Assembly: GCA_013166835.1 (NCBI GenBank)
Contig: JABLTI010000025.1
Coordinates: forward strand, 1 to 29,675
DNA from: Promethearchaeati archaeon
Lineage (GTDB): Archaea; Asgardarchaeota; Heimdallarchaeia; JABLTI01
Direction of reading: 5' to 3'
DNA: 29,675 nt
Shown: positions 1-13,318 of the stretch, piece after piece
Numbering within the stretch: the first letter of the stretch is position 1
Layout of the letters: the number at the start of each line of letters is the position of its first letter
Translations under genes and position numbers: made by a program
Notes under the pieces: generated by a model
Seen by the model: only the letters and a program-made list of their open reading frames with translations
The model's database searches: none
Told to the model about the DNA's origin: nothing

Positions 1-1422
1 AAAGATCATTGTGGCATTATAGGAATTCGAACAACTAAACGAATTCACGATTTAGGTTTCTTGTTATATCAAGGTATGTTAGCTTTACAACATCGAGGAC
101 AATCAAGTGCAGGAATTACAGTCATTAATAAAAAAAACATGAAAACAATATCCGATGTTGGTTATGTAAAGGATATCTTTGATAAAAATACTTTAGCAGC
201 TTTAAAAGGGAAATTTGGAATAGGTCATGTTCGATATCCAACAGCTGGAACAGATTTAACTGTTGGCATTCAACCTTTTGTTCTTCAAACAAGACAATTA
301 AAAATTGCAATTGCGTTTAATGGTACAATTGCGAATTTTGAAGAAGTTAGAGATTTTCTTATGGATCAAGGCTTCAGATTTAGTCACGATACAGATACAG
401 AAGTGATTGGAAAATTATTAGATTATGCACTTGAAGAAGAAAATGGTGATATGACAAAAGCAAGTAGAAAACTAATAGGTTATTTAGATGGAGCATATTC
501 GATTTTAATTGCCACAAATAAAGGTGAAATTATTGCTTTTAGAGATCCTCTTGGTTTTAAGCCTCTATGTTATGGGAAAACAAAGGAAGGGGATTTTGTA
601 ATTGCTTCCGAAACCATGGGATTAACTATCGTCGGTGCAGAATTTGAGGATGATGTGAAACCAGGTGAAATGATCATTATTAATGAGAAAGGCATTAAGA
701 AGAAACACTTATTCAAAGAAGAAAAATTTGCTCATTGTATGTTTGAATGGGTATATTTCGCTAGACCAGATGCAGTTTTGGATGGGATTTCTGCATATGA
801 AGCAAGAGAAAGAATTGGAAAAGGATTAGGTAAACTATTCAAAGAAAGAGGATATGAAGCAGATATTGTTGTCCCAATCCCTGATTCCGGTAGAATAGCA
901 GGTATTGGTTTCTCAAAAGAAACTGGTATTGAATATTCAGAAGCATTGATTAGAAATAGATATGTAGGACGAACGTTTATCATGCCACGTCAAACTGTAC
1001 GAGAGGAAGCAGTAAAACTTAAGCTAAATGTCTTGTCGAATCTAGTGAAAGGAAAGAAAGTAGTTCTAGTAGATGACTCAATAGTAAGAGGAACAACTTC
1101 TAGGGGAATCATACAAATGATTAGGGATGCAGGAGCTACTCATGTGTATTTTGCTGTGAGTTGCCCTCAACTCATTAATCCTTGTTTCATGGGAACTGAC
1201 TTTCCAACTGAAAGAGAACTAATTGCTTGTGGACGTACAGATGAAGAAATCGCAGAAATCCTTGGTCTTGATGCTGTTATTTACAACACAGTTCCATTAC
1301 TTGTTAATGCAATTGGTTTTGACAAGTGGCCTGAAAATAATAATTTGTGTTTAGCTTGTTTAACAGGCAATTATCCATTGAAAACAACACCCTCACAATT
1401 ACTCTGTGTAAGGGAATCATAA
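1..1422 (+). CDS. purF: Amidophosphoribosyltransferase (Fe-S type), 5'-truncated by the window edge
   Basis: Frame 1 is open from base 1: KDH-CGIIG (catalytic Cys at 10-12), LQHRGQ, GHVRYPT, PRPP motif VLVDDSIVRGTT, Fe-S ligands HCMFE, SCP, LCLAC. The true start lies upstream of the window; the track's TTG at 61 is internal. Confidence 0.97.
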   Translation, partial: KDHCGIIGIRTTKRIHDLGFLLYQGMLALQHRGQSSAGITVINKKNMKTISDVGYVKDIFDKNTLAALKGKFGIGHVRYPTAGTDLTVGIQPFVLQTRQLKIAIAFNGTIANFEEVRDFLMDQGFRFSHDTDTEVIGKLLDYALEEENGDMTKASRKLIGYLDGAYSILIATNKGEIIAFRDPLGFKPLCYGKTKEGDFVIASETMGLTIVGAEFEDDVKPGEMIIINEKGIKKKHLFKEEKFAHCMFEWVYFARPDAVLDGISAYEARERIGKGLGKLFKERGYEADIVVPIPDSGRIAGIGFSKETGIEYSEALIRNRYVGRTFIMPRQTVREEAVKLKLNVLSNLVKGKKVVLVDDSIVRGTTSRGIIQMIRDAGATHVYFAVSCPQLINPCFMGTDFPTERELIACGRTDEEIAEILGLDAVIYNTVPLLVNAIGFDKWPENNNLCLACLTGNYPLKTTPSQLLCVRES

Positions 1423-1511
1423 CCAACTTTTCACAGGAATCAGCAATCAATTTATTCAGCAAAATTCTTATTTCAAATAATATTCATTTGAATCATACAA
1501 TGGTGTAAGAA

Positions 1512-2846
1512 ATGGCAAAAGATAGAGTATTGTTAGTGGGACAAGGTGCAAGAGAACATGCTATAGCAAAAGCTTTGAAGAAAAGTGAAGTTGATTTATT
1601 CGCATTTATGAAAGCAAAAAATCCAGGAATCGCTAAGTTATCAACTAAAGTGAAAATAGCCAAATTAGATGATTTCGATGCTCTTGGAGATTTCATTAAG
1701 TATATTCAACCAGATTTTGCTGTTATTGGACCTGAAAACCCTCTTGCAGATGGTATCGTGGATTTTTTGTTGGAAAAAGGAGTAAAGTCAATCGGACCAA
1801 CAAAATCTGCAGCACGAATGGAATCATCGAAAAGCTTTACTCGAGATTTGTTAACAAAATACAATATACCGGGACAACCCGAATACAGAATCTTTGCTCC
1901 TGATACTGTGTTAATGGAGATCTCTGAATATATAGCAAAAGTAGGAAAAGTTGCTGTTAAGAGAGATGGTTTAGCAGGAGGAAAAGGAGTAAAATTGATG
2001 GGCGAGCATTTGCAAAATGTTGAAGAAGTCTTGGATTTTTGCCAAGAGGTTTTTGCTAAAGGGGAAGCAATAGTTTTTGAAGAATTATTAATTGGGGAAG
2101 AATTTTCTCTACAATGTTTTGTTTCAGGTGAAGACATTTCTCCATCACCAATAGTCCAGGATCACAAAAGAGCCTATGAAGGGGATACAGGACCAAATAC
2201 CGGGGGCATGGGTTCCTATAGTGCAGAAGATCACTTACTACCCTTTATACCAGCAGAAATTGTAGAAGAAGCTAAAGAGATTATTCGACAAACTGCAAAA
2301 GCCATAAAGCAGGAAATCGGAAGTGATTACATAGGAATTTTGTATGGTGGTTTTATGCTCACAGCAAATGGATTAAGAATTCTCGAATACAATACTCGTT
2401 TTGGTGATCCAGAAGCTATGAACATTTTACCTTTGCTAAAAACACCATTACTTGATATATTCAAAGCAATGATTAAGAAAGAGCTCTCAAAAATTAAGGT
2501 AGAATTTGCAAAACAAGCAACTGTTTGTAAGTATCTTGTTCCCGAAGGATACCCTGTCTCACCTAGAAAAGAAGAACCAATAGAAGTTGATGTTGAGAAA
2601 ATCATAAATGAAGGAGCAGATCTATTCTATTCATCAGTAAGTGAAGTGGAACCAGGAAAAATAATAACCACATCATCTCGAGCAATAGCTATTATAGGAA
2701 TAGCCAATGAATTAGCAAAAGCGGAAGAAATCGCTGAAAAAGCAACATCCTATGTGAAAGGACCATTATTCCACAGAAAAGATATTGGAACAAAAGAATT
2801 AGTGCAAAAAAGAATTGACCATTTGAAAGAGTTGAATGTATTATGA
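1512..2846 (+). CDS. purD: Phosphoribosylamine-glycine ligase (GAR synthetase), archaeal type
   Basis: VGQGAREHA, GPENPL, GLAGGKGV, QDHKRAYEGDTGPNTGGMGSYS, EYNTRFGDPE; archaeal-style PEGYP and HRKDIGT. Confidence 0.98.
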   Translation: MAKDRVLLVGQGAREHAIAKALKKSEVDLFAFMKAKNPGIAKLSTKVKIAKLDDFDALGDFIKYIQPDFAVIGPENPLADGIVDFLLEKGVKSIGPTKSAARMESSKSFTRDLLTKYNIPGQPEYRIFAPDTVLMEISEYIAKVGKVAVKRDGLAGGKGVKLMGEHLQNVEEVLDFCQEVFAKGEAIVFEELLIGEEFSLQCFVSGEDISPSPIVQDHKRAYEGDTGPNTGGMGSYSAEDHLLPFIPAEIVEEAKEIIRQTAKAIKQEIGSDYIGILYGGFMLTANGLRILEYNTRFGDPEAMNILPLLKTPLLDIFKAMIKKELSKIKVEFAKQATVCKYLVPEGYPVSPRKEEPIEVDVEKIINEGADLFYSSVSEVEPGKIITTSSRAIAIIGIANELAKAEEIAEKATSYVKGPLFHRKDIGTKELVQKRIDHLKELNVL

Positions 2847-3826
2847 TTGCCTTTTTCGATCTTGAAGGACCACTTTGTCCAATTGATCATGCAGCAGATG
2901 TCATAGCTTTAATTGGCAAAAAACTTGGAAAAGAACAAGATTTCTACAGATTATTTCAAATGATTAGCTTATATGACGATGAACTTTTCTTGGTGGACAA
3001 GAAAAAGGATTATTGGCCAGGTGATACGCTCAAACTTATAGCTCCTATCGTAGTCTCTTTTGCAGATGAAGAATTGTTGTTTAAGATATCTCGAGAAGCT
3101 GAACCAACTCCCGGAGCTATAGAACTTTTCCAATATCTGCAACAAAAAGAAATTCCAACTTACATAATCTCTACTAGTTATACTCATCATGCCCACACCA
3201 TTACTAAAAAACTGAATCATCCTATAGAAAATGTTAGATGCACCACTCTTGATTTCTCTTTAAAACCAGATAATACTGAAGCTCTTACACCTTTATTAGA
3301 AGATATTTTTCCAAGATATTTAGTAGATGGTATGACTGAAGTAAGGGAAGACCTCGATAAGTTCTTTTTCACAGATATTCCCGAATCAGATTTTGGAGCT
3401 ATTTTTGACTCTACTATCGTTTGTGGTGGTGGACGTAAGAGGAAATCTTTAATAGAGATTTTGGAAGAACACGAGTTGGATGCTTCCGATTCTATTGCAA
3501 TAGGTGATAGTATTACTGATATTCAAATGCTAGAATATGTAAGAGATAACGGTGGAACAGGTGTGTCATTTAATGGAAATGAATTTTCACTTCGACCATC
3601 AATGATTGCTTATTCAGGCAAGTCTATTTATCCGTTAACAGAATTAATCAAAGCGTTTCCAAAAACAATGGAATTTGTTTCTAGTCGATCAAAAGAAGAA
3701 ATGAGTGAAACCGAAGAATTTTTTGATATATCACTTGATATAAATGAAGAAGAATTTCAAAGGATTTTACTTTTGCAAAAGAAATATCGCAAATATCTAA
3801 GAGTGAAAGCAGCAGAATTGACTTAG
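2843..3826 (+). CDS. HAD-superfamily phosphohydrolase (COG4030 / EhaR-like)
   Basis: Motif I variant FDLEGPL, ISLYDD, YWPGDTLKLIAP, motif II ISTSY, motif IV GDSITD, SFNGN; ATGA overlap with the purD stop at 2843-2846. Confidence 0.85.
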   Translation: MIAFFDLEGPLCPIDHAADVIALIGKKLGKEQDFYRLFQMISLYDDELFLVDKKKDYWPGDTLKLIAPIVVSFADEELLFKISREAEPTPGAIELFQYLQQKEIPTYIISTSYTHHAHTITKKLNHPIENVRCTTLDFSLKPDNTEALTPLLEDIFPRYLVDGMTEVREDLDKFFFTDIPESDFGAIFDSTIVCGGGRKRKSLIEILEEHELDASDSIAIGDSITDIQMLEYVRDNGGTGVSFNGNEFSLRPSMIAYSGKSIYPLTELIKAFPKTMEFVSSRSKEEMSETEEFFDISLDINEEEFQRILLLQKKYRKYLRVKAAELT

Positions 3827-3918
3827 AGAAACATATGCTTGAGTAATATAAAAGCTTAAATGCCATTTTTATTGTGCTATAATTATCGCAATTAAATAAT
3901 TTTGAGTGGTTAGAAAAA

Positions 3919-5328
3919 TTGTCAATTATAGATAAGGATGATGAAGTTTTACTTATAGCACAAGTAGATCCTACACCAGGTAGACAATTGCTAACCAAAA
4001 GTGAAAGAAAGAAAAACATCTTTTTCTTTACAATAACGTCTTTTTTCGCTAGTTCAGCAAGCAGCATACATTTTGTTTTCTACAGTCTGTTTTTTTTGGA
4101 TATCAATGATTCTGAAAAATTGTTCGGAATTATTGGTACTGTTTCATCAGTTGTAGCTATTGTTGGATTAATTTTAGCTGATTACTTGAATAATATTTTA
4201 GGTTACAAAAGAGTTTTTATTATCGCTCAGGTTTTGATTGCTGTTTCATTTGGATTCTTTATTTTTAATCCAGTGAAAATATACATAGTAATTATTGCAG
4301 TTTTAATGTTAAGTTTGGCTTTCTCTCTTAATGAATCCCCATACAATATTATTTTAACAGAATCCGCTGGAGAAGAGAGAAAAGGATTAATAGCATCCAT
4401 TACTGCGTTTTTTGGTCGATTTGGTGAAGTAACTGTATCAACTATTGTTTTCATTTTAACTTTCGCAGTTGGTTTTGAATTTACAAATAAGGAACGAGCA
4501 TATTTCTATATATATGGAACAGTAGTAGTTGCTCTAATTGCTATTGGAACTATTTTCATTATAACAGATCCTTCAAGGAAATTGATTAAAGAAAATCAAA
4601 AAGCATTTCCAATAAAAGAAAAGAAAAAAGAAGAAACCACTGATGATAGTGAAGAAAAAGAAACTAAGAAGAAGACTAGTTTTATTGGAGGATTTATTGC
4701 TGCATTCAAAGACAAATGGGTACTTAGAATAGCACTAACATTTTTCTTAGATGCTTTCTTGTGGAGCATTGCACTTGGAGTTCATTGGGCTGGTTTGCAA
4801 GACGAAGATATCTTTGGTGCGAATGCTTTCGATGATAAACAAATCAGTCTTTTAATTATGGTTACAAGCATCACAATATTAGTTGCTATGTATCTTGGGA
4901 GATATGTAGATAGATTAGGTGCGAGACTCTTTCTATTTATATCAGAGCTCTGTGGACTAGTCTGGATAATTTTAACTGTGCTATTTGTTTTTTATCAAGA
5001 TTTGTTTTTCTTGATGATAATCGCAAGAATAGCTTTAGGGTTTTCAGTTGCTCTATGGATACCATCAACTGTCGCACTTTTCACAAACGTTGAACCTGAA
5101 CGTAAAAGTAAAGTGTATAATTCAATAGCTATTTTCCGATCTATTGGATGGTTACCTGGAGGTTTTATTGCTGGTTTTCTATATGATGCTATCCCACAAC
5201 CCTATGGGTACTTGACTCCTATGTTCATCTTAATCGCTGGTTTTCTGATTATCATCCCAGTTTTCTATACCATACCAAACAGACCAAGTGATATGAATAA
5301 AGCTAAGAAAGCAGCAAAATCACAGTAA
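3919..5328 (+). CDS. Major facilitator superfamily transporter
   Basis: About 12 hydrophobic segments in two halves joined by a K/E-rich loop; motif A variants ADYLNNILGYKR and GRYVDRLGAR; TTG start is tentative. Confidence 0.9.
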   Translation: MSIIDKDDEVLLIAQVDPTPGRQLLTKSERKKNIFFFTITSFFASSASSIHFVFYSLFFLDINDSEKLFGIIGTVSSVVAIVGLILADYLNNILGYKRVFIIAQVLIAVSFGFFIFNPVKIYIVIIAVLMLSLAFSLNESPYNIILTESAGEERKGLIASITAFFGRFGEVTVSTIVFILTFAVGFEFTNKERAYFYIYGTVVVALIAIGTIFIITDPSRKLIKENQKAFPIKEKKKEETTDDSEEKETKKKTSFIGGFIAAFKDKWVLRIALTFFLDAFLWSIALGVHWAGLQDEDIFGANAFDDKQISLLIMVTSITILVAMYLGRYVDRLGARLFLFISELCGLVWIILTVLFVFYQDLFFLMIIARIALGFSVALWIPSTVALFTNVEPERKSKVYNSIAIFRSIGWLPGGFIAGFLYDAIPQPYGYLTPMFILIAGFLIIIPVFYTIPNRPSDMNKAKKAAKSQ

Positions 5329-5396
5329 TGCTAGCAAACAAAACTCCTTTAAGTTAGCAGAAGTCAGTTATTTTACTCATAACTGGAGTGTTAACA

Positions 5397-6320
5397 ATGC
5401 CCGAAACATTCGACGTCATCTCTTTAGGTGCAGTTTTAGTTGATATGATTGCGCTTGTAGAAGAGTTTCCGAAAAGAGACGGGGAATCGTTTGTACGGGA
5501 TTTTAAGTTTATGCCAGGGGGGGCAGCAGCAAACGTAGCGGTAATTACTAGTAGATTAGGTTTGAAAACCGCGTTCTCGGGAAAAATTGGCAAAGACACA
5601 TTCGGAGACCTACTTCTCAAAGATCTCACTAAAGAAAAAGTTCACTACAAGAATACTGTAGTCATTTCTGATGAGATAAGCACTGGATCATGTTATATCT
5701 GTGTTGATAAGAAGGGTGATCGAATGATTATGGCCTACAGTGGTGCAGCAGATACTTTAGCGATTGGTGATTTACCACTTGAATTATTTGCAAAAGCAAA
5801 CTGGGTAAACTTGTCTGATCTAAGGAATATTGCATCCATTGAAGCCTTACTTGAAAGTGATATTGAGATCAATTTCTCTATGAGTCCCGGAGCTCTTATT
5901 GCTCAGAATCCGAGCAGAGCATATCGATTAGCACAAAAGGCGAAACTCATTGTAGCTAGTGTAGATGAAATAACTCAAATCTTTCGATGTGCTGAGGAAG
6001 AAATTAATGCTATAGCTGTTGATTTAATAAAGGAAAATAAGGAAAGAGTAATTGCTGTAACCAAAGGCAGCAGAGGAGCAACAATTTATAGTAAAAATGA
6101 AAAAGTGAATATCCCCATTTTCAAAGTAGATGTCGTTGATACTACTGGAGCTGGAGATGCTTTCACTGCTGGAATGCTGTATGCATTAACTCGAGGAAAA
6201 TCACCCAAACAAGCAGGAAGAATTGCTGCTGCTTGCTCCGCTATTTGTATTCAAGAAGTGGGTGCACGAAGTGGACCCAAAAGCAAAATGGATTTACTGA
6301 AATTCTTAAGAAAAAACTAA
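5397..6320 (+). CDS. PfkB/ribokinase-family kinase
   Basis: PGGAAANVA, GKIGKDTFG, VTKGSRGA, DTTGAGDAF. ATG 5397 preferred over GTG 5388 because GGAGTG (5385-5390) sits at RBS distance. Confidence 0.93.
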   Translation: MPETFDVISLGAVLVDMIALVEEFPKRDGESFVRDFKFMPGGAAANVAVITSRLGLKTAFSGKIGKDTFGDLLLKDLTKEKVHYKNTVVISDEISTGSCYICVDKKGDRMIMAYSGAADTLAIGDLPLELFAKANWVNLSDLRNIASIEALLESDIEINFSMSPGALIAQNPSRAYRLAQKAKLIVASVDEITQIFRCAEEEINAIAVDLIKENKERVIAVTKGSRGATIYSKNEKVNIPIFKVDVVDTTGAGDAFTAGMLYALTRGKSPKQAGRIAAACSAICIQEVGARSGPKSKMDLLKFLRKN

Positions 6321-6362
6321 GAAATGTTAATAGATATCCAAATAAGTCATAATTAGTAAAGA

Positions 6363-6812
6363 ATGGTTGTGTTAATGATGGATGAGCCAGTTGTTACGGT
6401 TATATCTGGATCGAAATCAGATAATGAAATTGTTGAGAAAGTTGTTGGAGTTCTAAAGGAATTTGATGTTCCACATACTGCTGTTGTTTTATCTGCTCAT
6501 AGAAACGCAAAAGAACTTGATGATTACCTTGCGAAAACTCCAGCAAAAGTAATAATTGCCATTGCGGGATTAGCTGCAGCCCTACCAGGTGTTTGTGCAA
6601 GCAAAACAAAAAAAGTAGTAATTGGGGTTCCAGTTTCTTCTAAACTTGGTGGAATGGATGCTTTACTATCAATTGTTCAGATGCCCTCAGGAGTTCCAGT
6701 TGCAACCGTAGGAATTGATAATGGAAAAAATGCTGCATATCTAGCAATTAGAATTCTAGCTTTGAATCAAGATAATCTAGGGGAGAAATTATGTAAGAAA
6801 CTTAAGAGTTAG
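6363..6812 (+). CDS. purE: PurE (AIR carboxylase / N5-CAIR mutase)
   Basis: GSKSD, SAHR, AGLAAALPG, VIGVP, GMDALLSIVQMPSGVPVATV, NAAYLA. Start could be ATG 6375 or 6378. Confidence 0.96.
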   Translation: MVVLMMDEPVVTVISGSKSDNEIVEKVVGVLKEFDVPHTAVVLSAHRNAKELDDYLAKTPAKVIIAIAGLAAALPGVCASKTKKVVIGVPVSSKLGGMDALLSIVQMPSGVPVATVGIDNGKNAAYLAIRILALNQDNLGEKLCKKLKS

Positions 6813-6833: not shown

Positions 6834-8867
6834 ATGGTTGAAGAAGAACAGAAAGAAGATGGTATTAAAGATATAAAAGAGGTCTTTTATGATAATCTAG
6901 ATAATTGGCCGACAGAGACAATTAAAAAGAACCTTTTCAGGTTGCGACCCGAGGAAGGAGCCGAAGTTTATCTTAACTTGAGTGAAGGTTACCATGATAT
7001 CACAAATCAGGGTTTAGAAGTTGAGAAGAAGTTCAGACCGAAAGTCACTATTCGTACACAAGAATTAAAGACCGAATTAGATAGATGGAAAATTGGAGGA
7101 GGAGCTTTCTTCAGAGTAGTTGCAGATTCCCCAAATCTTAATACAGCGATGAAATTGTGTATACAATACTTCATTGTCTGGACAAGACAGCTATTTCCTT
7201 TTCAATTCAGCTTTTTGAGTATTCCATTTTTCATTGCGACACTTTTCTTGTCACAATTTACCTTAGCATATCAGCCAGAAAGTGCTACCCTCGGAACTTA
7301 TCTGACGTTTTTAATCACTGGTTTGCTATTCATTTGCTTAGGTATTTGGACGTATTTTGAGGGATTGTATAAGAGATTCATTAAAGGCTACAAGAGCTGG
7401 AAAACTGTCCCGGATAGTATGATAGGATTTGTAATACCTGGATTGCTTTTCTGGTCAACTGCTTTGGAATATGCAATATATAATTTATCATCAACAAATT
7501 TGATAAAAACGTTAATTCCAGTCAGTGCTTGGTTATCACTTCTCATAGGAGCTGTTGTTCTATTCATTGGAACAGATGCCTTTTTGAGAGGAGAGAAATC
7601 ATATGTAGAGAAATTTTCACATCCCATGGATTATGCTCCACTCATGCTGTATTTGTATAAGAATAAAGCAGGAAATTGGGATATAGAAGGAACTCAATTT
7701 GATTATTTCCATTATAAGACATCATTTATTCCCAAAGAGAAATTATCTTACAAAGAAGATGAAGATGAAAAGAAAGAACATCCTTGGTTCCTAATTGATA
7801 GATCGTGGCATGCTTTTAGAGAATACATCAAACCTAATATAATGATCAGATTATTTGCTAATGTAATTTTCATTATCATTGCATGGCTGATTATCGTTGG
7901 TGTCTATGTTATTTTTGTGCTAGAGAAATTCTGGTTGGATATTGGAACACTAGAAGCTAATTTTACTCATCCAGTATTCTTTATGCTAATCTACGTTTTA
8001 CTGCCAATTATGGTTGTTTTCATGCTATGGTCAATTAGTCGAACAAGAGAATACAAGTTGCATATCTGGGAAGACCTTTCAGAGAAAGACGATGATGAAA
8101 TAATAAGAAATCATCACTTATCATATGATAGATTGCGCATTCTCTGGAACCTTCGAAATAGAGAGCACATAGGAGAACAACGATTCACCGAAATCTGGTC
8201 AAAAAGTGACTGGATAGAAGGAGACAGTTCACGTTTAGTTGCTCGAGTAAAAATGCAATTCCCATTTGACCGTTACAAAGATTGGCACACATTAAGAGAC
8301 ACACAAGAAGAATTGTTATCATTAATTGCTGTCCAAACAAAAGAAGAAGAACTAAGAAAACTACATGCAGAGATTGCAGAAGTAAAAAGAGATCTACAAA
8401 AACAAATGATAGAAGGAATTGACTCAATCGAAGAAGAACTCGATGAATACTTTGATGAACAAAAAGAGGATATTGAGGAAGAAAGAGCGGAATTGAAGGA
8501 GAAACTTGGAGTAATTGAAGATACTGTCGTTGAAGAAACTGCGGTAGAAGAAATTGAAACTGAAGAAATCATTGAGGAAACTAAACCAGAAGTTATTGAT
8601 ACAGTTGACGAAATCATCGAAGAAATTGAAGAAGTAACCGAGGAAGTATCTGAACCAGTAGTTGAAGAAATTTTTTCGGAAACAGAAATTCCTGATATCC
8701 CAGATGTCGATGAGGAGAAAGAAGAAACACCTGTCAAAGAGGATATAGAAGATTTAGGTGTTCCTGACTTACCACCAATAGAAGAAGATAAAAAAGAACC
8801 AGAGGAAGAAGAAGAGGAATTTACTATTCCTGACATTCCAATAGATGTAGAAAAAGAAGAAGATTAG
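6834..8867 (+). CDS. Unknown multi-pass membrane protein (about 6 TM) with a coiled coil and a long acidic C-terminal tail
   Basis: 677-aa ORF with GGAG RBS; about four hydrophobic helices at aa ~120-250 and two at ~335-405; heptad-like segment, then an E/D-rich tail. Confidence 0.85.
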   Translation: MVEEEQKEDGIKDIKEVFYDNLDNWPTETIKKNLFRLRPEEGAEVYLNLSEGYHDITNQGLEVEKKFRPKVTIRTQELKTELDRWKIGGGAFFRVVADSPNLNTAMKLCIQYFIVWTRQLFPFQFSFLSIPFFIATLFLSQFTLAYQPESATLGTYLTFLITGLLFICLGIWTYFEGLYKRFIKGYKSWKTVPDSMIGFVIPGLLFWSTALEYAIYNLSSTNLIKTLIPVSAWLSLLIGAVVLFIGTDAFLRGEKSYVEKFSHPMDYAPLMLYLYKNKAGNWDIEGTQFDYFHYKTSFIPKEKLSYKEDEDEKKEHPWFLIDRSWHAFREYIKPNIMIRLFANVIFIIIAWLIIVGVYVIFVLEKFWLDIGTLEANFTHPVFFMLIYVLLPIMVVFMLWSISRTREYKLHIWEDLSEKDDDEIIRNHHLSYDRLRILWNLRNREHIGEQRFTEIWSKSDWIEGDSSRLVARVKMQFPFDRYKDWHTLRDTQEELLSLIAVQTKEEELRKLHAEIAEVKRDLQKQMIEGIDSIEEELDEYFDEQKEDIEEERAELKEKLGVIEDTVVEETAVEEIETEEIIEETKPEVIDTVDEIIEEIEEVTEEVSEPVVEEIFSETEIPDIPDVDEEKEETPVKEDIEDLGVPDLPPIEEDKKEPEEEEEEFTIPDIPIDVEKEED

Positions 8868-11047: not shown

Positions 11048-12310
11048 CTATGTTACTATTTTTGATAATTTTCCAGTCTTAAATGCCTGACAGATTTCTA
11101 TCATTGGTAAATCAATTGGAGAAGTTATCTGATTGACACCTTTTGGCAAGTATTTCTGATATTTCAAAGTTAAACTATTCATCTGAGGACTAGCAGCTAC
11201 TGCAGGATCACCGGGAACTCTCATACTAATATCAAATACAACCCAATCAGGTCGATTATCCTTTGGGCTAATTGGAACCGCTCCTTGTAGGCCAAATAAA
11301 CCAATCATACCTGGAGGATATAATTTTGCAACAGTTTCCAAGAACTTGGGTATGGATCCTACTACTTCGCCCATTTTTGATTCTCGCATAGTAGCCATGG
11401 TATGTCCAATTTCTTCGTTTTTAATCTTGATTTTATCACCAATTTGCTGCTGGATTTTTGCTGGTAAATTCAAGAAACCACTACTATTTGTTTGCATTCT
11501 TTGACCAAAACCAACAAAATCCCAATCAACTATTGGATTTCTAAATGGATCATGTTCGTGTTTTAACCAATTAATACCATCAGTTAGTTTGTAACCTTTA
11601 GCTTTTCCTTTGTTTAAACCAGATGCCCAACCATTGCAGTTGAAATAAGGACCAATAATAAATTCCTCTATACGAGCTTCAGCTAAAGTTTGATCATTGA
11701 TTAGCCCTTTTACTTTCATAGCTTCGGCTTGCTCATGATAATCATCTTCAGAAGTTATGTAGAAGAAAGCTCTCTCAAGAGGATTATCTGCTTGTTGAAC
11801 CTTAACTAATGCTACTGGGACTTCCTTATCAATCCCGATTATATCTAATTCATCTTTACTAATTTCTCTTGGAGACCTAATACCAGAGCGCTTCAAGATT
11901 CCATATTGATCAATGTATTCTTTTTCGTTTGTTGTTCTATCCTCACTCTTAAGCAAGAATCTGTTTCCGTATATGGGAATTTTTAATTCGTTTTCAACTT
12001 TTTCCGCTGAAAGATAGACAACAAGAGATCGATTAGGAATTAGAATACCGTTCTTCTCAAGTAGCTCATTTTGTATTGAATCAAACAACATTTGATCCCA
12101 TTCATCGACAACAATAGTCTCATCAAAAAGATGGCATTGTTCCTCGAGATACTGTCTTTCTCTTCCCTTCTTTACAACAACTATGTTATTCAAACCCATT
12201 CTTTTGGAAGAGAGTCCAGTCTCTATTGCTGAATGACTTCCAAAAATGACAATTGTTGGTTTTTCTTTATACTCACTTACTAAATGTTGCATTTCTTTTC
12301 TTTTGATCAA
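11048..12310 (-). CDS. PurP-like ATP-grasp protein (COG1759, divergent paralog class)
   Basis: GSHSA, GRERQY, PNRSL, YGNRFLLKSEDR, VKVQQA..LERAFF, IEEFIIG, RES, FDISMRVPG. The TTG start directly follows the purP TAA, with GGAGG upstream. Confidence 0.9.
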   Translation of the reverse strand: MIKRKEMQHLVSEYKEKPTIVIFGSHSAIETGLSSKRMGLNNIVVVKKGRERQYLEEQCHLFDETIVVDEWDQMLFDSIQNELLEKNGILIPNRSLVVYLSAEKVENELKIPIYGNRFLLKSEDRTTNEKEYIDQYGILKRSGIRSPREISKDELDIIGIDKEVPVALVKVQQADNPLERAFFYITSEDDYHEQAEAMKVKGLINDQTLAEARIEEFIIGPYFNCNGWASGLNKGKAKGYKLTDGINWLKHEHDPFRNPIVDWDFVGFGQRMQTNSSGFLNLPAKIQQQIGDKIKIKNEEIGHTMATMRESKMGEVVGSIPKFLETVAKLYPPGMIGLFGLQGAVPISPKDNRPDWVVFDISMRVPGDPAVAASPQMNSLTLKYQKYLPKGVNQITSPIDLPMIEICQAFKTGKLSKIVT

Positions 12311-13318
12311 TTAAATCTCCTCCAACTTAGGGGAATCAACAGTTATCAAATCTATTTTCTTTTTCTCATAAGCTTCCTTAATCTCTCGAGCAATGCGTTT
12401 ACCCATATACATAGGTTCACCCCAGAGATTGTTAGCATAAGTATTTCCATACGGAACCCAAACAGTAGTTCCCGCAACAATTCTTCCTGAAAATTCAAAA
12501 GCATAAATTTTAGGATCAGTGGTTACAATTGTTTCGATACAGAATGGACCAACCAATCCAGTTTGTTCCACAAAATTCCTGCCCATGTGATGGTATTCAG
12601 GAACTAACGATTCTCGGACAACAATGGGAATATTACCAATAACTGTAAATGAAGGTTCATCTGTAGAAACGAGATGTTGGGAATTAGCATTAGATTCAAG
12701 TCTACGATCAAATCCTAATAATTCGCATCGTTTTTCTATTGGGGAACTGAAATAATGAGCATAAACAGATACTCCACTAATATATTCTTGAATGAAATCT
12801 ATGTTCTTACCCTTACTTTTCTTCTGGAAATCTGCTTTATTGTTAGCAATAAAGTATCCTTTTCCACCTTCTGCTCCATGTAATTTTACCATAACTGGGC
12901 GATCAATTGCTTCACTATCTGAAAAAACCTTTGGAGTATTAATTCCAGAAGCTATAAGCAATTCAGAGTTGCGATTTCTATCTCCTTCATATCCAAGAAT
13001 TTTTACTCCGCCAAGAATAGGATGCTTTAATTGTTTTAACTCAGCCACAGATAAATAACGAACAAATGATCCATGAGGAACAATAACTACATCTCCATCA
13101 AGGGAATTAAAAGCTTTAACAGTTGCTTTAGAATCGCTGTAGTCTTTCACTCGTATGATATTAATTTGGTTCAAAAAATCCGGATATTGTGACCAGAGTT
13201 CCCAATCTCTATCAAAACAAACAACATAAACTTCCAATCCTTCTTCAATTGCTCCAGGAATAATATTATAAAAAGAAGAGTGTGAACTGGTTGTTGCGAT
13301 AACTGCTTTTGATCCCAT
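12311..13318 (-). CDS. purP: Formate-dependent FAICAR synthetase PurP (ATP-grasp)
   Basis: SSHS, PHGSFV, IDRPVMVK, GAEGGKGYF, IQEY, DRRLESN, GNIPIVVRESL, GPFCIE, FEFSGRIVAGT, MGKRIAREIK. Confidence 0.92.
   Translation of the reverse strand: MGSKAVIATTSSHSSFYNIIPGAIEEGLEVYVVCFDRDWELWSQYPDFLNQINIIRVKDYSDSKATVKAFNSLDGDVVIVPHGSFVRYLSVAELKQLKHPILGGVKILGYEGDRNRNSELLIASGINTPKVFSDSEAIDRPVMVKLHGAEGGKGYFIANNKADFQKKSKGKNIDFIQEYISGVSVYAHYFSSPIEKRCELLGFDRRLESNANSQHLVSTDEPSFTVIGNIPIVVRESLVPEYHHMGRNFVEQTGLVGPFCIETIVTTDPKIYAFEFSGRIVAGTTVWVPYGNTYANNLWGEPMYMGKRIAREIKEAYEKKKIDLITVDSPKLEEI

What the first reader, a model, noticed from the sequence alone, without database searches (positions are those of the whole stretch)
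6990..7817. Vps62/NPP1-like motif series split by an inserted four-helix membrane bundle
Seen, in order: KFRPKV (aa ~66), CIQYFIVW (aa 109), about four TM helices, HPMDYAPL (aa 263), FDYFHY (aa ~290), HPWFLIDRSWHAF (aa 316), then two more TMs. From memory, Vps62/NPP1-like domains run (Y/F)AP, IQYWFFY, HxxDWE, SxH, P.VY...GSHA: the same order and similar spacing apart from the ~140-aa hydrophobic insert. Inference: a His/Asp-site beta-domain held at the membrane by helices inserted in its own loop. This would evade standard HMM hits and would be notable if the host is an Asgard archaeon, since Vps62 is a vacuolar-sorting family.
Basis: inference. Interest (0 to 1): 0.72.

Follow-up and report, generated by a model that had tools for sequence, protein, structure and literature searches.

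The report
Membrane-stapled NLP-fold protein of Asgard archaea
A Heimdallarchaeal membrane protein carries on its cytoplasmic face a domain related to one that folds like the NLP toxins of plant pathogens, but cut in two places by six membrane helices; it defines an undescribed Asgard protein family whose function is still unknown.

Summary
ORF 6834-8867 (+, 677 aa) holds the quoted motifs at aa 66, 109, 263, 289 and 316, with four hydrophobic helices between the second and third and two more after the last.

Thorarchaeota encode natural TM-less paralogs (~310-330 aa) in which the same motifs are contiguous. Profile comparison links them to the window family in two collinear pieces (E 5e-17 and 4e-8), leaving the 4-TM and 2-TM blocks as insertions.

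A confident AlphaFold model of one paralog (pLDDT 90.8) matches only NLP/NPP1 toxin structures. The seven NLP entries score Z 9.1-10.0 and the next best 4.1-5.0. The seven best Foldseek hits are all NLP, but at weak E-values (7e-3 to 3e-2).

H263, D266, D290, H293, Y294 and H326 are invariant in 69-70 of 70 family members. Loop charges put all soluble parts in the cytoplasm.

Not shown:
- Sequence-level membership of Pfam NPP1 or Vps62: no hits, and hhalign is marginal at best.
- Residue-level overlay on the NLP cation site.
- Any function.

Best reading: a new, membrane-integrated, cytoplasmic branch of the NLP/Vps62-like fold. It occurs in Heimdall-, Hod-, Odin- and Thorarchaeal lineages and probably holds a metal/head-group pocket at the inner membrane face.

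The parts
6834..8867 (+). Whole gene, 677 aa (P0001), stop included
   Evidence: Homologs at 54-95% identity, mostly named Heimdallarchaeota. One copy in G000 and in 10 of 10 other genomes of the genus.
6963..7190 (+). First piece of the NLP-like core (aa 44-119): FRP, GGG.FFRV and CIQYFIVWTRQ strands, ending at invariant Q119
   Evidence: hhalign window 44-123 vs TM-less paralog 20-89, Prob 95.0, E 3.9e-8. Maps to strands 57-67 and 74-86 of the model. R94, Q111 and Q119 conserved.
7191..7574 (+). Insertion 1: four transmembrane helices (aa ~120-141, 153-175, 197-216, 227-247). With its linker it spans 143 aa between the Q119 and H263 columns.
   Evidence: The same gap is 4-9 aa in 30 of 30 TM-less relatives and 105-191 aa in 37 of the 38 full-length TM rows (P0069: 38 aa, probably misaligned).
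7608..7829 (+). Second piece of the core (aa 259-332): SHPMDYAPL, FDYFHY and SWHAF strands with invariant H263, D266, P269, D290, H293, Y294, W325, H326
   Evidence: Maps to strands 89-102, 105-113, 116-122, 130-135 and 140-145 of the model.
7839..8036 (+). Insertion 2: two transmembrane helices (aa ~336-362, 380-401)
   Evidence: 100 aa between the F328 and L429 columns, against 15-20 aa in TM-less relatives.
8049..8333 (+). Third piece of the core (aa 406-500): HLSYDRLRILWNL, RLVARVKMQFPF, TLRD. It includes a clade-specific 22-aa insert, aa 441-462 (nt 8154-8219).
   Evidence: hhalign window 239-522 vs paralog 72-229, E 5.1e-17. The NLP match of the model runs to residue 193, which aligns near window aa 482. 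The 22-aa insert is seen in alignment A3.
8292..8513 (+). Long charged helix, probably a coiled coil (aa ~487-560)
Evidence: The coiled-coil reading is an inference from the sequence.
8514..8864 (+). Acidic tail (D+E 45% of aa 521-677) with two IPDIP motifs at aa 619 (nt 8688-8702) and aa 665 (nt 8826-8840). The C-terminal F.IPDIPIDV.KE.D is conserved in part of the clade.

Best explanation
The gene encodes a member of an undescribed Asgard protein family built on an NLP-like (NPP1/Vps62-like) beta-sandwich domain that faces the cytoplasm.

In this branch of the family two loops of the domain each acquired hydrophobic insertions. Four transmembrane helices sit in the hairpin between the 'IQY.Y.W..Q' strand and the 'H..DY.P' strand. 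Two more follow the 'WH(S/A)F' strand. The domain is thereby stapled to the inner face of the membrane.

Shown:
- The motif series and its conservation.
- The existence of TM-less paralogs.
- Their homology to the window protein.
- Their NLP-like predicted fold.
- The same-side, cytoplasmic topology.

Inferred:
- The invariant polar set (Q119, H263, D266, D290, H293, Y294, H326) forms one pocket equivalent to the cation/head-group cavity of NLPs.
- Because the insertion points lie within 0-12 residues of Q119, H263 and H326, that pocket sits at the membrane surface.
- There it binds a metal ion and a polar lipid head group, or hydrolyses one.
- The C-terminal helix and acidic IPDIP tail recruit soluble partners. 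In relatives this role would fall to TPR, HEAT, Macro or DUF362 modules.

My odds: anatomy and fold about 0.85; a metal/head-group pocket at the membrane about 0.35.
For: Motifs and TM segments.

Family: 28 close homologs and 37 representatives in 1.84 billion proteins. Source names are Heimdall-, Hod-, Odin- and Thorarchaeota.

TM-less paralogs: in the six-frame genome search, profile positions ~85-125 and ~251-321 are hit contiguously in ~330-aa ORFs. Sequences are, and 179 such proteins were found.

Homology: hhalign E 5.1e-17 (window 239-522 vs paralog 72-229) plus E 3.9e-8 (44-123 vs 20-89), collinear.

Fold: AF2 pLDDT 90.8, pTM 0.89.
- Foldseek against PDB: ranks 1-7 are all NLPPya entries, E 7e-3 to 3e-2, prob 0.97-0.99.
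- VIA-align against 48,161 chains: 3st1 Z 10.0 (rmsd 3.6, 158 aligned of 212) and 9wsc Z 9.1, next Z 5.0.
- Second look: seven NLP entries at Z 9.1-10.0, all 14 chains with Z>=8 are NLP, next 4.1.

Conservation.

Topology, K+R per loop: 0.1 / 4.6 / 0.4 / 0.9, and 3.8 after TM6.

Insertion states: 30 of 30 soluble rows against 37 of the 38 full-length TM rows. One branch (SH-aLRT 95) separates them.

Weak concordant leads:
- Language-model features of the paralog rank a Vps62 cluster first (0.83) and an NPP1 cluster 17th (0.78).
- hhalign against a widened Vps62-like profile aligns IQY/H..DYE/HY/WHSF with RYW/H.GDWE/SNH/GSHA at P 0.047.

NLP heptapeptide as part of a Mg2+/GIPC head-group cavity: PMC8311650 (passages read). 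Vps62 HVGDWEH likened to the NLP motif GHRHDWE: PMC13159263 (passages read).
Against: The confident model is of a paralog only ~21% identical to the window protein in A5. The window protein's own model was poor in the core: mean pLDDT 54.4, and 24-59 in the ten-residue blocks of the core (aa ~30-120, 251-340, 411-500).

No Foldseek match reaches E 1e-3. The tool notes that best Z values of 7-8 are common for unmatched models.

No sequence-level link to NPP1 or Vps62:
- Pfam silent for the protein, its three soluble pieces, 36 family members and 5 of 5 unfused paralogs.
- PDB profile searches silent for NLPs.
- hhalign against Thorarchaeal Vps62-like proteins gave E 0.44 and E 0.025, both in wrong registers. 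A5 against the widened profile gave E 0.057, also in a wrong register.

The Glu of the NLP/Vps62 '(D)WE' position is Ala in 29 of 40 TM forms.

No coordinates were available, so neither clustering of the His/Asp residues nor their overlay on the NLP site was measured.

No conserved gene neighbourhood beyond the genus.

Metal or lipid binding is inference only.
Confidence: 0.6

Rival explanations
1. Membrane-bound enzyme rather than a binding module. The invariant H/D/D/H/H set is the metal centre of a hydrolase or transferase that works on inner-leaflet lipids or lipid-linked envelope precursors. The NLP-like sandwich is only its scaffold.
For: Three His and two Asp, plus Tyr, Arg and two Gln, are invariant over 66-70 of 70 sequences. 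That is stricter conservation than a mere binding surface usually needs. The insertion points put them next to the membrane. Some relatives are fused to DUF362 or Macro domains.
Against: No catalytic activity is known to me for NLP or Vps62 proteins (own knowledge). There is no similarity to any hydrolase family in Pfam, NCBIfam or PDB. No metabolic gene neighbourhood is conserved.
Confidence: 0.2
2. Convergent fold. The family is an unrelated beta-sandwich that happens to resemble NLPs, and the motif likeness to GHRHDWE/HVGDWEH is coincidence.
For: Sequence identity to NLP chains is 8-12%. No HMM or robust profile-profile link exists. Foldseek E-values are only 7e-3 and weaker.
Against: The match covers 152-158 residues of NLP chains of 206-222 and nearly the whole domain of the model (13-193). 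It stands 4-5 Z units above the next hit in two searches. No other sandwich family intrudes. The best hhalign register against Vps62-like proteins pairs the same strands and the same His/Asp motifs. Language-model features independently rank Vps62 and NPP1 clusters.
Confidence: 0.12
3. Passive scaffold or anchor. The six helices and the sandwich only tether the C-terminal helix and acidic tail (elsewhere TPR or HEAT repeats) to the membrane. The conserved residues are structural.
For: C-terminal and N-terminal additions are interchangeable across the family: acidic tail, TPR, HEAT, Macro, DUF362. The soluble paralog carries a winged-helix-like C-terminal domain at weak Z 4-5.
Against: Invariant His and Asp side chains are unusual as purely structural residues in a cytoplasmic domain. 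They are kept in both the membrane and the soluble branch.
Confidence: 0.12
4. A cytolytic toxin like the NLPs of plant pathogens.
For: Only the shared fold.
Against: There is no signal sequence and the N-terminus is acidic. The orientation is cytoplasmic. It is an integral six-helix protein. It is a single-copy, vertically conserved gene in 10 of 10 other genomes of the genus and 19 of 22 of another genus.
Confidence: 0.02

Closest known systems
NLP / NPP1 cytolysins (Pfam PF05630; PDB 3gnz, 5nnw, 5no9, 6qbd, 6qbe, 3st1, 9wsc)
   Same: The predicted fold of the TM-less paralog matches at Z 9.1-10.0, with 152-158 aligned residues. Both have a strand pair carrying an aromatic-rich 'Y.W' strand followed by an H..D(W/Y)(E/A) strand. 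In NLPs that motif lines a cation/GIPC head-group cavity that meets the membrane (PMC8311650, passages read).
   Different: No HMM-level similarity. Cytoplasmic rather than secreted. No signal peptide, and none of the disulfide cysteines named in PMC8311650. Interrupted by 4+2 transmembrane helices. Extra invariant D..HY and WH motifs. Housekeeping-like distribution in Asgard archaea rather than in plant pathogens.
Vps62 family (Pfam PF06101), including the small Vps62-like proteins of Thorarchaeota found here (L061-L094) and the 'Vps62-related protein' of an Acaryochloris plasmid
   Same: Same order of motifs: (Y/F)AP, aromatic RYWFWY strand, H.GDWE, S.H, GSHA.Y. The best hhalign register pairs them with FRP/IQY.Y.W/H..DY(E/A)/D..HY/WHSF. 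A Vps62 cluster is the top language-model neighbour of the paralog.
   Different: The statistics are marginal (P 0.047 in one of four comparisons, wrong register in the other three). There is no Pfam hit. The Thorarchaeal Vps62-like proteins themselves score 21.1 bits against a 22.1 cut-off, and they are absent from the window's genome. Nothing links the window protein to vacuolar sorting.
TM-less paralogs of Thorarchaeota (~310-330 aa, undescribed; alignment A4) and HEAT-fused 750-aa forms
   Same: True homologs (E 5e-17 and 4e-8) with the same invariant residues.
   Different: No membrane insertions. Glu instead of Ala after D-Y. A winged-helix-like C-terminal domain instead of the helix plus acidic tail.
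ORF8 of haloarchaeal plasmid-vesicle plasmids (pR1SE-like)
   Same: An archaeal protein reported to resemble NEP1/NLP by predicted structure and thought to interact with membranes (PMC10818511, passages read).
   Different: It is a plasmid-vesicle component of Halobacteria. No relation to the present family was tested here.

Membership tests
NLP / NPP1 (PF05630) | Scores above the Pfam gathering cut-off (21 bits) | tested here: not met
   No hit at E<=10 for the whole protein, its three soluble pieces, 36 family members or the TM-less paralogs. No six-frame hit in the own genome or in five Thor/f26 genomes.
NLP / NPP1 (PF05630) | NLP beta-sandwich fold | tested here: met
   Tested on a TM-less paralog (pLDDT 90.8): Z 9.1-10.0 to seven NLP entries, next best 4.1-5.0, and Foldseek ranks 1-7 all NLP. 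The result transfers to the window protein through hhalign E 5e-17 and 4e-8. The window protein's own model was too poor to test.
NLP / NPP1 (PF05630) | GHRHDWE heptapeptide lining a cation pocket | tested here: inconclusive
   The window has S-H-P-M-D-Y-A. H and D are invariant, W is replaced by Y, and E is kept in 29/30 soluble forms but is A in 29/40 TM forms. Residue-level superposition was not possible because no coordinates were available.
NLP / NPP1 (PF05630) | Secreted protein with conserved disulfide cysteines | tested here: not met
   Acidic N-terminus without a hydrophobic leader. The loop charges place the domain in the cytoplasm. Only one partly conserved Cys, C109.
NLP / NPP1 (PF05630) | Cytolysis of membranes that contain GIPC | not testable with these tools
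   Needs protein and membranes.
Vps62 (PF06101) | Scores above the Pfam gathering cut-off (22.1 bits) | tested here: not met
   No hit. In five other Asgard genomes the model hits different genes, not the paralog loci.
Vps62 (PF06101) | Profile-profile similarity to recognised Vps62-like proteins | tested here: inconclusive
   A4 against 29 Thorarchaeal Vps62-like proteins: E 0.44, wrong region. A5 against the same: E 0.025, wrong register. A4 against the widened set of 32: E 0.047 in the motif register. A5 against the widened set: E 0.057, wrong register.
Undescribed Asgard split NLP-like family (this report) | Invariant R94, Q111, Q119, H263, D266, P269, D290, H293, Y294, W325, H326 in this order | tested here: met
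Undescribed Asgard split NLP-like family (this report) | Hydrophobic insertions after the Q119 column and after the WH(S/A)F strand | tested here: met
   Window: 143 aa and 100 aa. Of the 38 full-length TM rows, 37 have 105-191 aa at the first site (P0069: 38 aa, probably misaligned) and all 38 have 73-157 aa at the second.

The most novel reading that the evidence does not exclude
Asgard archaea possess an intracellular, housekeeping branch of the NLP/Vps62 fold. It uses a metal-type His/Asp pocket pressed against the inner membrane leaflet to recognise or cleave lipid head groups, with interchangeable cytosolic adaptor modules (acidic IPDIP tail, TPR, HEAT, Macro, DUF362). It would be a membrane-surface sensing or remodelling device, and the first case of a toxin-type lipid-recognition fold built into a polytopic membrane protein by loop insertion. 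It could be the cellular context from which secreted NLP cytolysins and eukaryotic Vps62 proteins are offshoots.
Probability: 0.15. Interest if true: 0.8.

Novelty: new variant of a known kind. Interest (0 to 1): 0.62.

Why it matters
NLPs are known as secreted cytolysins of plant pathogens that recognise a sphingolipid head group. Vps62 proteins are widespread but functionally obscure.

Here a related domain is found as a conserved cytoplasmic and membrane-integrated protein family across several Asgard lineages. That gives the fold a cellular, non-toxin context.

It also gives a clear natural example of transmembrane helices inserted into loops of a soluble beta-domain, with soluble and inserted forms both still extant.

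It supplies a concrete, testable candidate for a protein that reads or modifies the inner leaflet of Asgard membranes, whose lipid biology and membrane dynamics bear on eukaryogenesis.

It also shows that standard HMM annotation misses the family entirely. In the held paper library no paper pairs 'Asgard' with 'Vps62' or 'Nep1-like'.

Tried and rejected
**Family and sequence searches**
- Pfam, for the protein, its soluble pieces and all family members: only TPR, HEAT and Macro hits on fused parts.
- NCBIfam: only far-sub-threshold noise, e.g. HtpX at 17 bits against a 285 cut-off on the TM5-6 region.
- PDB sequence-profile searches with A2 and A4: no NLP and nothing below E 0.1.
- PF06101 and PF05630 in the own genome: no match, but the control genomes were silent too, so this is uninformative.

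**Structure**
- First AlphaFold run on the window protein with 29 close homologs: mean pLDDT 54, core unusable. It was not used for fold search.
- ESM Atlas with the window protein: only unnamed bacterial clusters at 0.85-0.86, low recognition.
- BFVD viral structures: nothing at E<=1e-3. A Megaviridae 'vacuolar protein sorting-associated protein' at rank 2 has E 5e-2 and prob 0.23, too weak to use.

**Vps62 link**
- hhalign against Vps62-like proteins: three of four comparisons gave the wrong register or were not significant.

**Gene neighbourhood**
- PfkB-purE-gene-UPF0014 is conserved only within the genus.
- Other lineages have unrelated neighbours: amidohydrolase, glutamine synthetase and aminotransferase in one, MFS and roadblock in another.
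- A link to purine synthesis is therefore rejected.

**Transcription**
- Contigs from four metatranscriptome libraries lie on parts of the gene. Two are ~92-94% alike over 923-1160 nt, and three 151-nt pieces have 0-2 differences.
- DNA carry-over is not excluded, and uncovered parts mean nothing.

**Other**
- The toxin reading is rejected on topology and distribution.
- I considered reading the IPDIP tail as an MIT-binding or other linear motif. This was an idea from memory only and was not tested.
Full report
**Observation**

The finding lies inside one ORF, 6834-8867 on the + strand, 677 aa. All five quoted strings are there:
- KFRPKV at aa 66
- CIQYFIVW at aa 109
- HPMDYAPL at aa 263
- FDYFHY at aa 289
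- HPWFLIDRSWHAF at aa 316

Hydropathy and the helices of a first AlphaFold model give four membrane helices between aa 120 and 247 and two between aa 336 and 401. The rest of the protein is a long charged helix and an acidic tail. The tail is 45% D+E and has two IPDIP motifs.

**Known families by sequence**

Pfam finds nothing, even at E<=10, for the whole protein, for its three soluble pieces or for 36 family members. The exceptions are TPR, HEAT and Macro domains fused to some relatives. NCBIfam and PDB sequence-profile searches are equally silent.

**The family**

- A word-seeded search found 28 homologs at 54-95% identity. Most that carry an organism name are Heimdallarchaeota; two carry other MAG labels.
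- An exhaustive phmmer run over 1.84 billion representatives found 37 proteins. The distant ones are 27-35% identical over aa ~23-445.
- Named members of those clusters are Hodarchaeales, Odinarchaeia and Thorarchaeota, with one Pacearchaeota label.
- In the 36-sequence alignment A3 the invariant columns are G90, R94, Q119, H263, D266, P269, D290, H293, Y294 and H326.

**The decisive lead: natural TM-less paralogs**

I searched 400 genomes of the phylum in six frames with the A3 profile. 100 had a match. Strong full-length matches fell in:
- the window's genus (10 of 10 other genomes)
- a second genus of the same class (19 of 22)
- two further small families
- about ten genomes of family f31

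Many f31 genomes also carry ORFs of ~330 aa in which profile positions ~85-125 and ~251-321 (and sometimes ~403-454) are hit back to back in the DNA. Fetching 18 such loci showed proteins reading ...F(V/I)GV(F/Y)GRV...CLQYLYVWDYQAVPAHE(G/A)DYEPIFV(F/Y)LD...YAIYDLVHYCSRR...IPGWHSFLP...PLSDQHL..WW.IP...RLKI...PF... This is the same motif series with no hydrophobic insert. 179 such proteins exist in the large collection, nearly all named Thorarchaeota. None has a Pfam hit apart from HEAT repeats in a 750-aa fused form.

hhalign of the membrane family (A3) against the soluble one (A4) gives two collinear hits (first seen):
- window 239-522 with paralog 72-229: Prob 98.8, E 5.1e-17
- window 44-123 with paralog 20-89: Prob 95.0, E 3.9e-8

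The space between the Q119 and H263 columns is 4-9 aa in 30 of 30 soluble rows and 105-191 aa in 37 of the 38 full-length membrane rows; the window has 143. One row (P0069) shows 38 aa, probably a misalignment, and two rows are fragments. The space between the F328 and L429 columns is 15-20 aa against 73-157 aa; the window has 100.

A quick maximum-likelihood tree was built on the shared 181 columns. It used 69 of the 70 rows; one fragment was dropped for under 60% fill. The 39 membrane rows separate from the 30 soluble rows by a single branch, SH-aLRT 95. One insertion history is therefore enough. The tree is unrooted, so the polarity is inferred from the contiguous NLP fold.

**Fold**

The window protein's own model, built from 29 close homologs, was poor in the core (mean pLDDT 54.4). 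The result was pLDDT 90.8 and pTM 0.89, with a beta-sandwich at residues ~57-145 flanked by helices.

| Search | NLP matches | Next best |
|---|---|---|
| Foldseek vs PDB | ranks 1-7 all NLPPya entries (5no9, 3gnz, 5nnw, 6qbd), E 7e-3 to 3e-2, prob 0.97-0.99, ~150 columns; 6qbe, 9wsc, 3st1 lower | none reaches E 1e-3 |
| VIA-align vs 48,161 representative chains | 3st1 Z 10.0 (rmsd 3.6, 158 aligned of 212, model 13-193); 9wsc Z 9.1 | Z 5.0 |
| VIA-align second look | seven NLP entries Z 9.1-10.0; all 14 chains with Z>=8 are NLP | Z 4.1 |

Residues 199-306 of the paralog give only weak winged-helix-type matches (Z 4-5).

The core of the family therefore has the NLP/NPP1 fold. Through the hhalign links this applies to window aa ~44-119, 259-332 and 406-482.

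**Where the helices sit**

I mapped the model's strands onto the window protein.
- Insertion 1 lies in the two-residue hairpin between strand 74-86 (CIQYFIVWTRQ in the window) and strand 89-102 (SHPMDYAPLMLYLY).
- Insertion 2 follows strand 140-145, which starts right after W325-H326.
- Q119 is the last residue before TM1. H263 comes about 15 residues after TM4. H326 comes about 10 residues before TM5.

In a beta-meander, the end that holds the 86-89 hairpin also holds the 113-116 hairpin (D290, H293, Y294). This suggests one polar cluster near the membrane. That is an inference from the secondary-structure string, not a measurement, because no coordinates were available.

**Topology**

In 27-29 close homologs the mean K+R count is as follows:

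| Loop | Mean K+R |
|---|---|
| TM1-2 | 0.1 |
| TM2-3 | 4.6 |
| TM3-4 | 0.4 |
| TM5-6 | 0.9 |
| first 19 residues after TM6 | 3.8 |

By the positive-inside rule the N-terminus is in, and all three pieces of the sandwich and the tail are cytoplasmic. This fits the absence of a signal peptide and the existence of plainly cytosolic paralogs. It is the opposite of the secreted NLP toxins.

**Relation to Vps62 and NPP1 at sequence level**

This is the weak part.
- The Pfam models do not hit the family.
- The Vps62 model did pick up, below threshold, a different Thorarchaeal protein of 235-250 aa. It scored 21.1 bits against a 22.1 cut-off.
- That protein has a textbook motif series: DYAPILHFHPEE, LRYWFWYNYN, GEHLGDWEHVEVRIY, FSNH, WVALGSHALYP.
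- It is present in 63 of 89 genomes of the last three families of the tally. All listed hits are in f31, and it is absent from the window's genome.
- It is related to an annotated 'Vps62-related protein' on an Acaryochloris plasmid (E 3e-5).

hhalign of our family against this Vps62-like family gave:

| Comparison | E-value | Register |
|---|---|---|
| A4 vs 29 Thor Vps62-like | 0.44 | wrong region |
| A5 vs same | 0.025 | wrong |
| A5 vs widened set | 0.057 | wrong |

Protein language-model features of the paralog rank a Vps62 cluster first (0.83) and an NPP1 cluster 17th (0.78). Both are below the tool's 0.9 line. These are concordant hints, not proof.

From the papers (passages read):
- The Vps62 peptide HVGDWEH has been likened to the NLP heptapeptide GHRHDWE (PMC13159263).
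- That heptapeptide lines a cation (Mg2+) cavity that engages the GIPC head group (PMC8311650).
- Part of what Pfam calls Vps62 is really a beta-tripod (PMC7613979, PMC8624791).
- An NLP-like protein has been inferred by structure prediction in haloarchaeal plasmid vesicles (PMC10818511).

**Context and accessories**

- The PfkB-purE-gene-UPF0014 order holds only within the genus. Elsewhere the neighbours differ, so I see no operon logic.
- Relatives carry N-terminal DUF362 (three proteins of 1023-1224 aa), C-terminal TPR, N-terminal HEAT or a Macro domain.
- The window clade has a 22-aa insert (aa 441-462) and the acidic IPDIP tail.
- Contigs of four metatranscriptome libraries from three studies lie on parts of the gene. 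This fits transcription but does not exclude DNA carry-over.

**Mechanism and verdict**

Shown:
- A conserved Asgard family whose core is homologous to proteins with a confidently predicted NLP fold.
- Two hydrophobic insertions at defined loops.
- Invariant His/Asp/Tyr/Gln/Arg positions.
- Cytoplasmic orientation.

Inferred: the invariant residues form a metal/head-group pocket, equivalent to the NLP cavity, held against the inner leaflet, and the variable termini recruit partners.

I put about 0.85 on the anatomy and about 0.35 on the pocket function. Rivals are an enzyme version of the same idea, a passive scaffold, fold convergence and (very unlikely) a toxin.

It is not a member of Pfam NPP1 or Vps62 by their own criteria. 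It works, structurally, like a membrane-integrated relative of them. In the held library no paper pairs Asgard with Vps62 or Nep1-like (listing).

Noticed in passing
L061:1225-1929 (+), L062:1222-1941 (+), L065-L094: Thorarchaeota carry a small (235-250 aa) protein with the full Vps62 motif series. It scores just under the Pfam Vps62 cut-off (21.1 vs 22.1 bits). It is present in 63 of 89 genomes of the last three families of the tally and absent from the window's genome. It is related to an annotated Vps62-related protein on an Acaryochloris plasmid.
   Followed up: partly
L032:1298-2224 (+) and 17 further loci (L031-L048): The TM-less paralogs pair the NLP-like domain with a C-terminal region that gives only weak winged-helix-type structural matches (Z 4-5). 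This could mean a ligand-sensing DNA- or protein-binding protein.
   Followed up: no
L049:2788-6459 (-), L050:1547-5200 (+), L051:1025-4093 (+): Long relatives (1023-1224 aa) fuse an N-terminal DUF362 domain (E 1e-40 to 1e-47) to the membrane-inserted module. Others carry TPR, HEAT or Macro domains.
   Followed up: partly
window 8688-8702 and 8826-8840: There are two IPDIP motifs in the acidic tail. The C-terminal F.IPDIPIDV.KE(E/D)D is conserved in part of the Heimdall clade and looks like a short linear docking motif. The partner is unknown.
   Followed up: no
window 8154-8219: A clade-specific 22-aa insert (RNREHIGEQRFTEIWSKSDWIE, with invariant W455, K457, W460, I461) lies between the LWNL and RLVARVK motifs. 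It is absent from the distant relatives.
   Followed up: no
window 8273-8836 (-): A 187-aa Ser-rich ORF lies antisense to the acidic tail. It is most likely just the mirror image of the GAA/GAG-rich coding strand, not a gene.
   Followed up: no
window 1-6812 and 11048-13318: Purine-synthesis genes surround the locus: purF-like amidotransferase, purD, purE, and two tandem PurP-type (DUF1246/DUF1297) genes on the minus strand. They are interleaved with HAD, MFS, PfkB, UPF0014 and ABC ATPase genes.
   Followed up: no
G080:C714, G084:C48, G079:C157 and others (table): Several homolog matches contain single in-frame TGA, TAA or TAG stops. I did not examine whether these are assembly errors, pseudogenes or recoding.
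   Followed up: no
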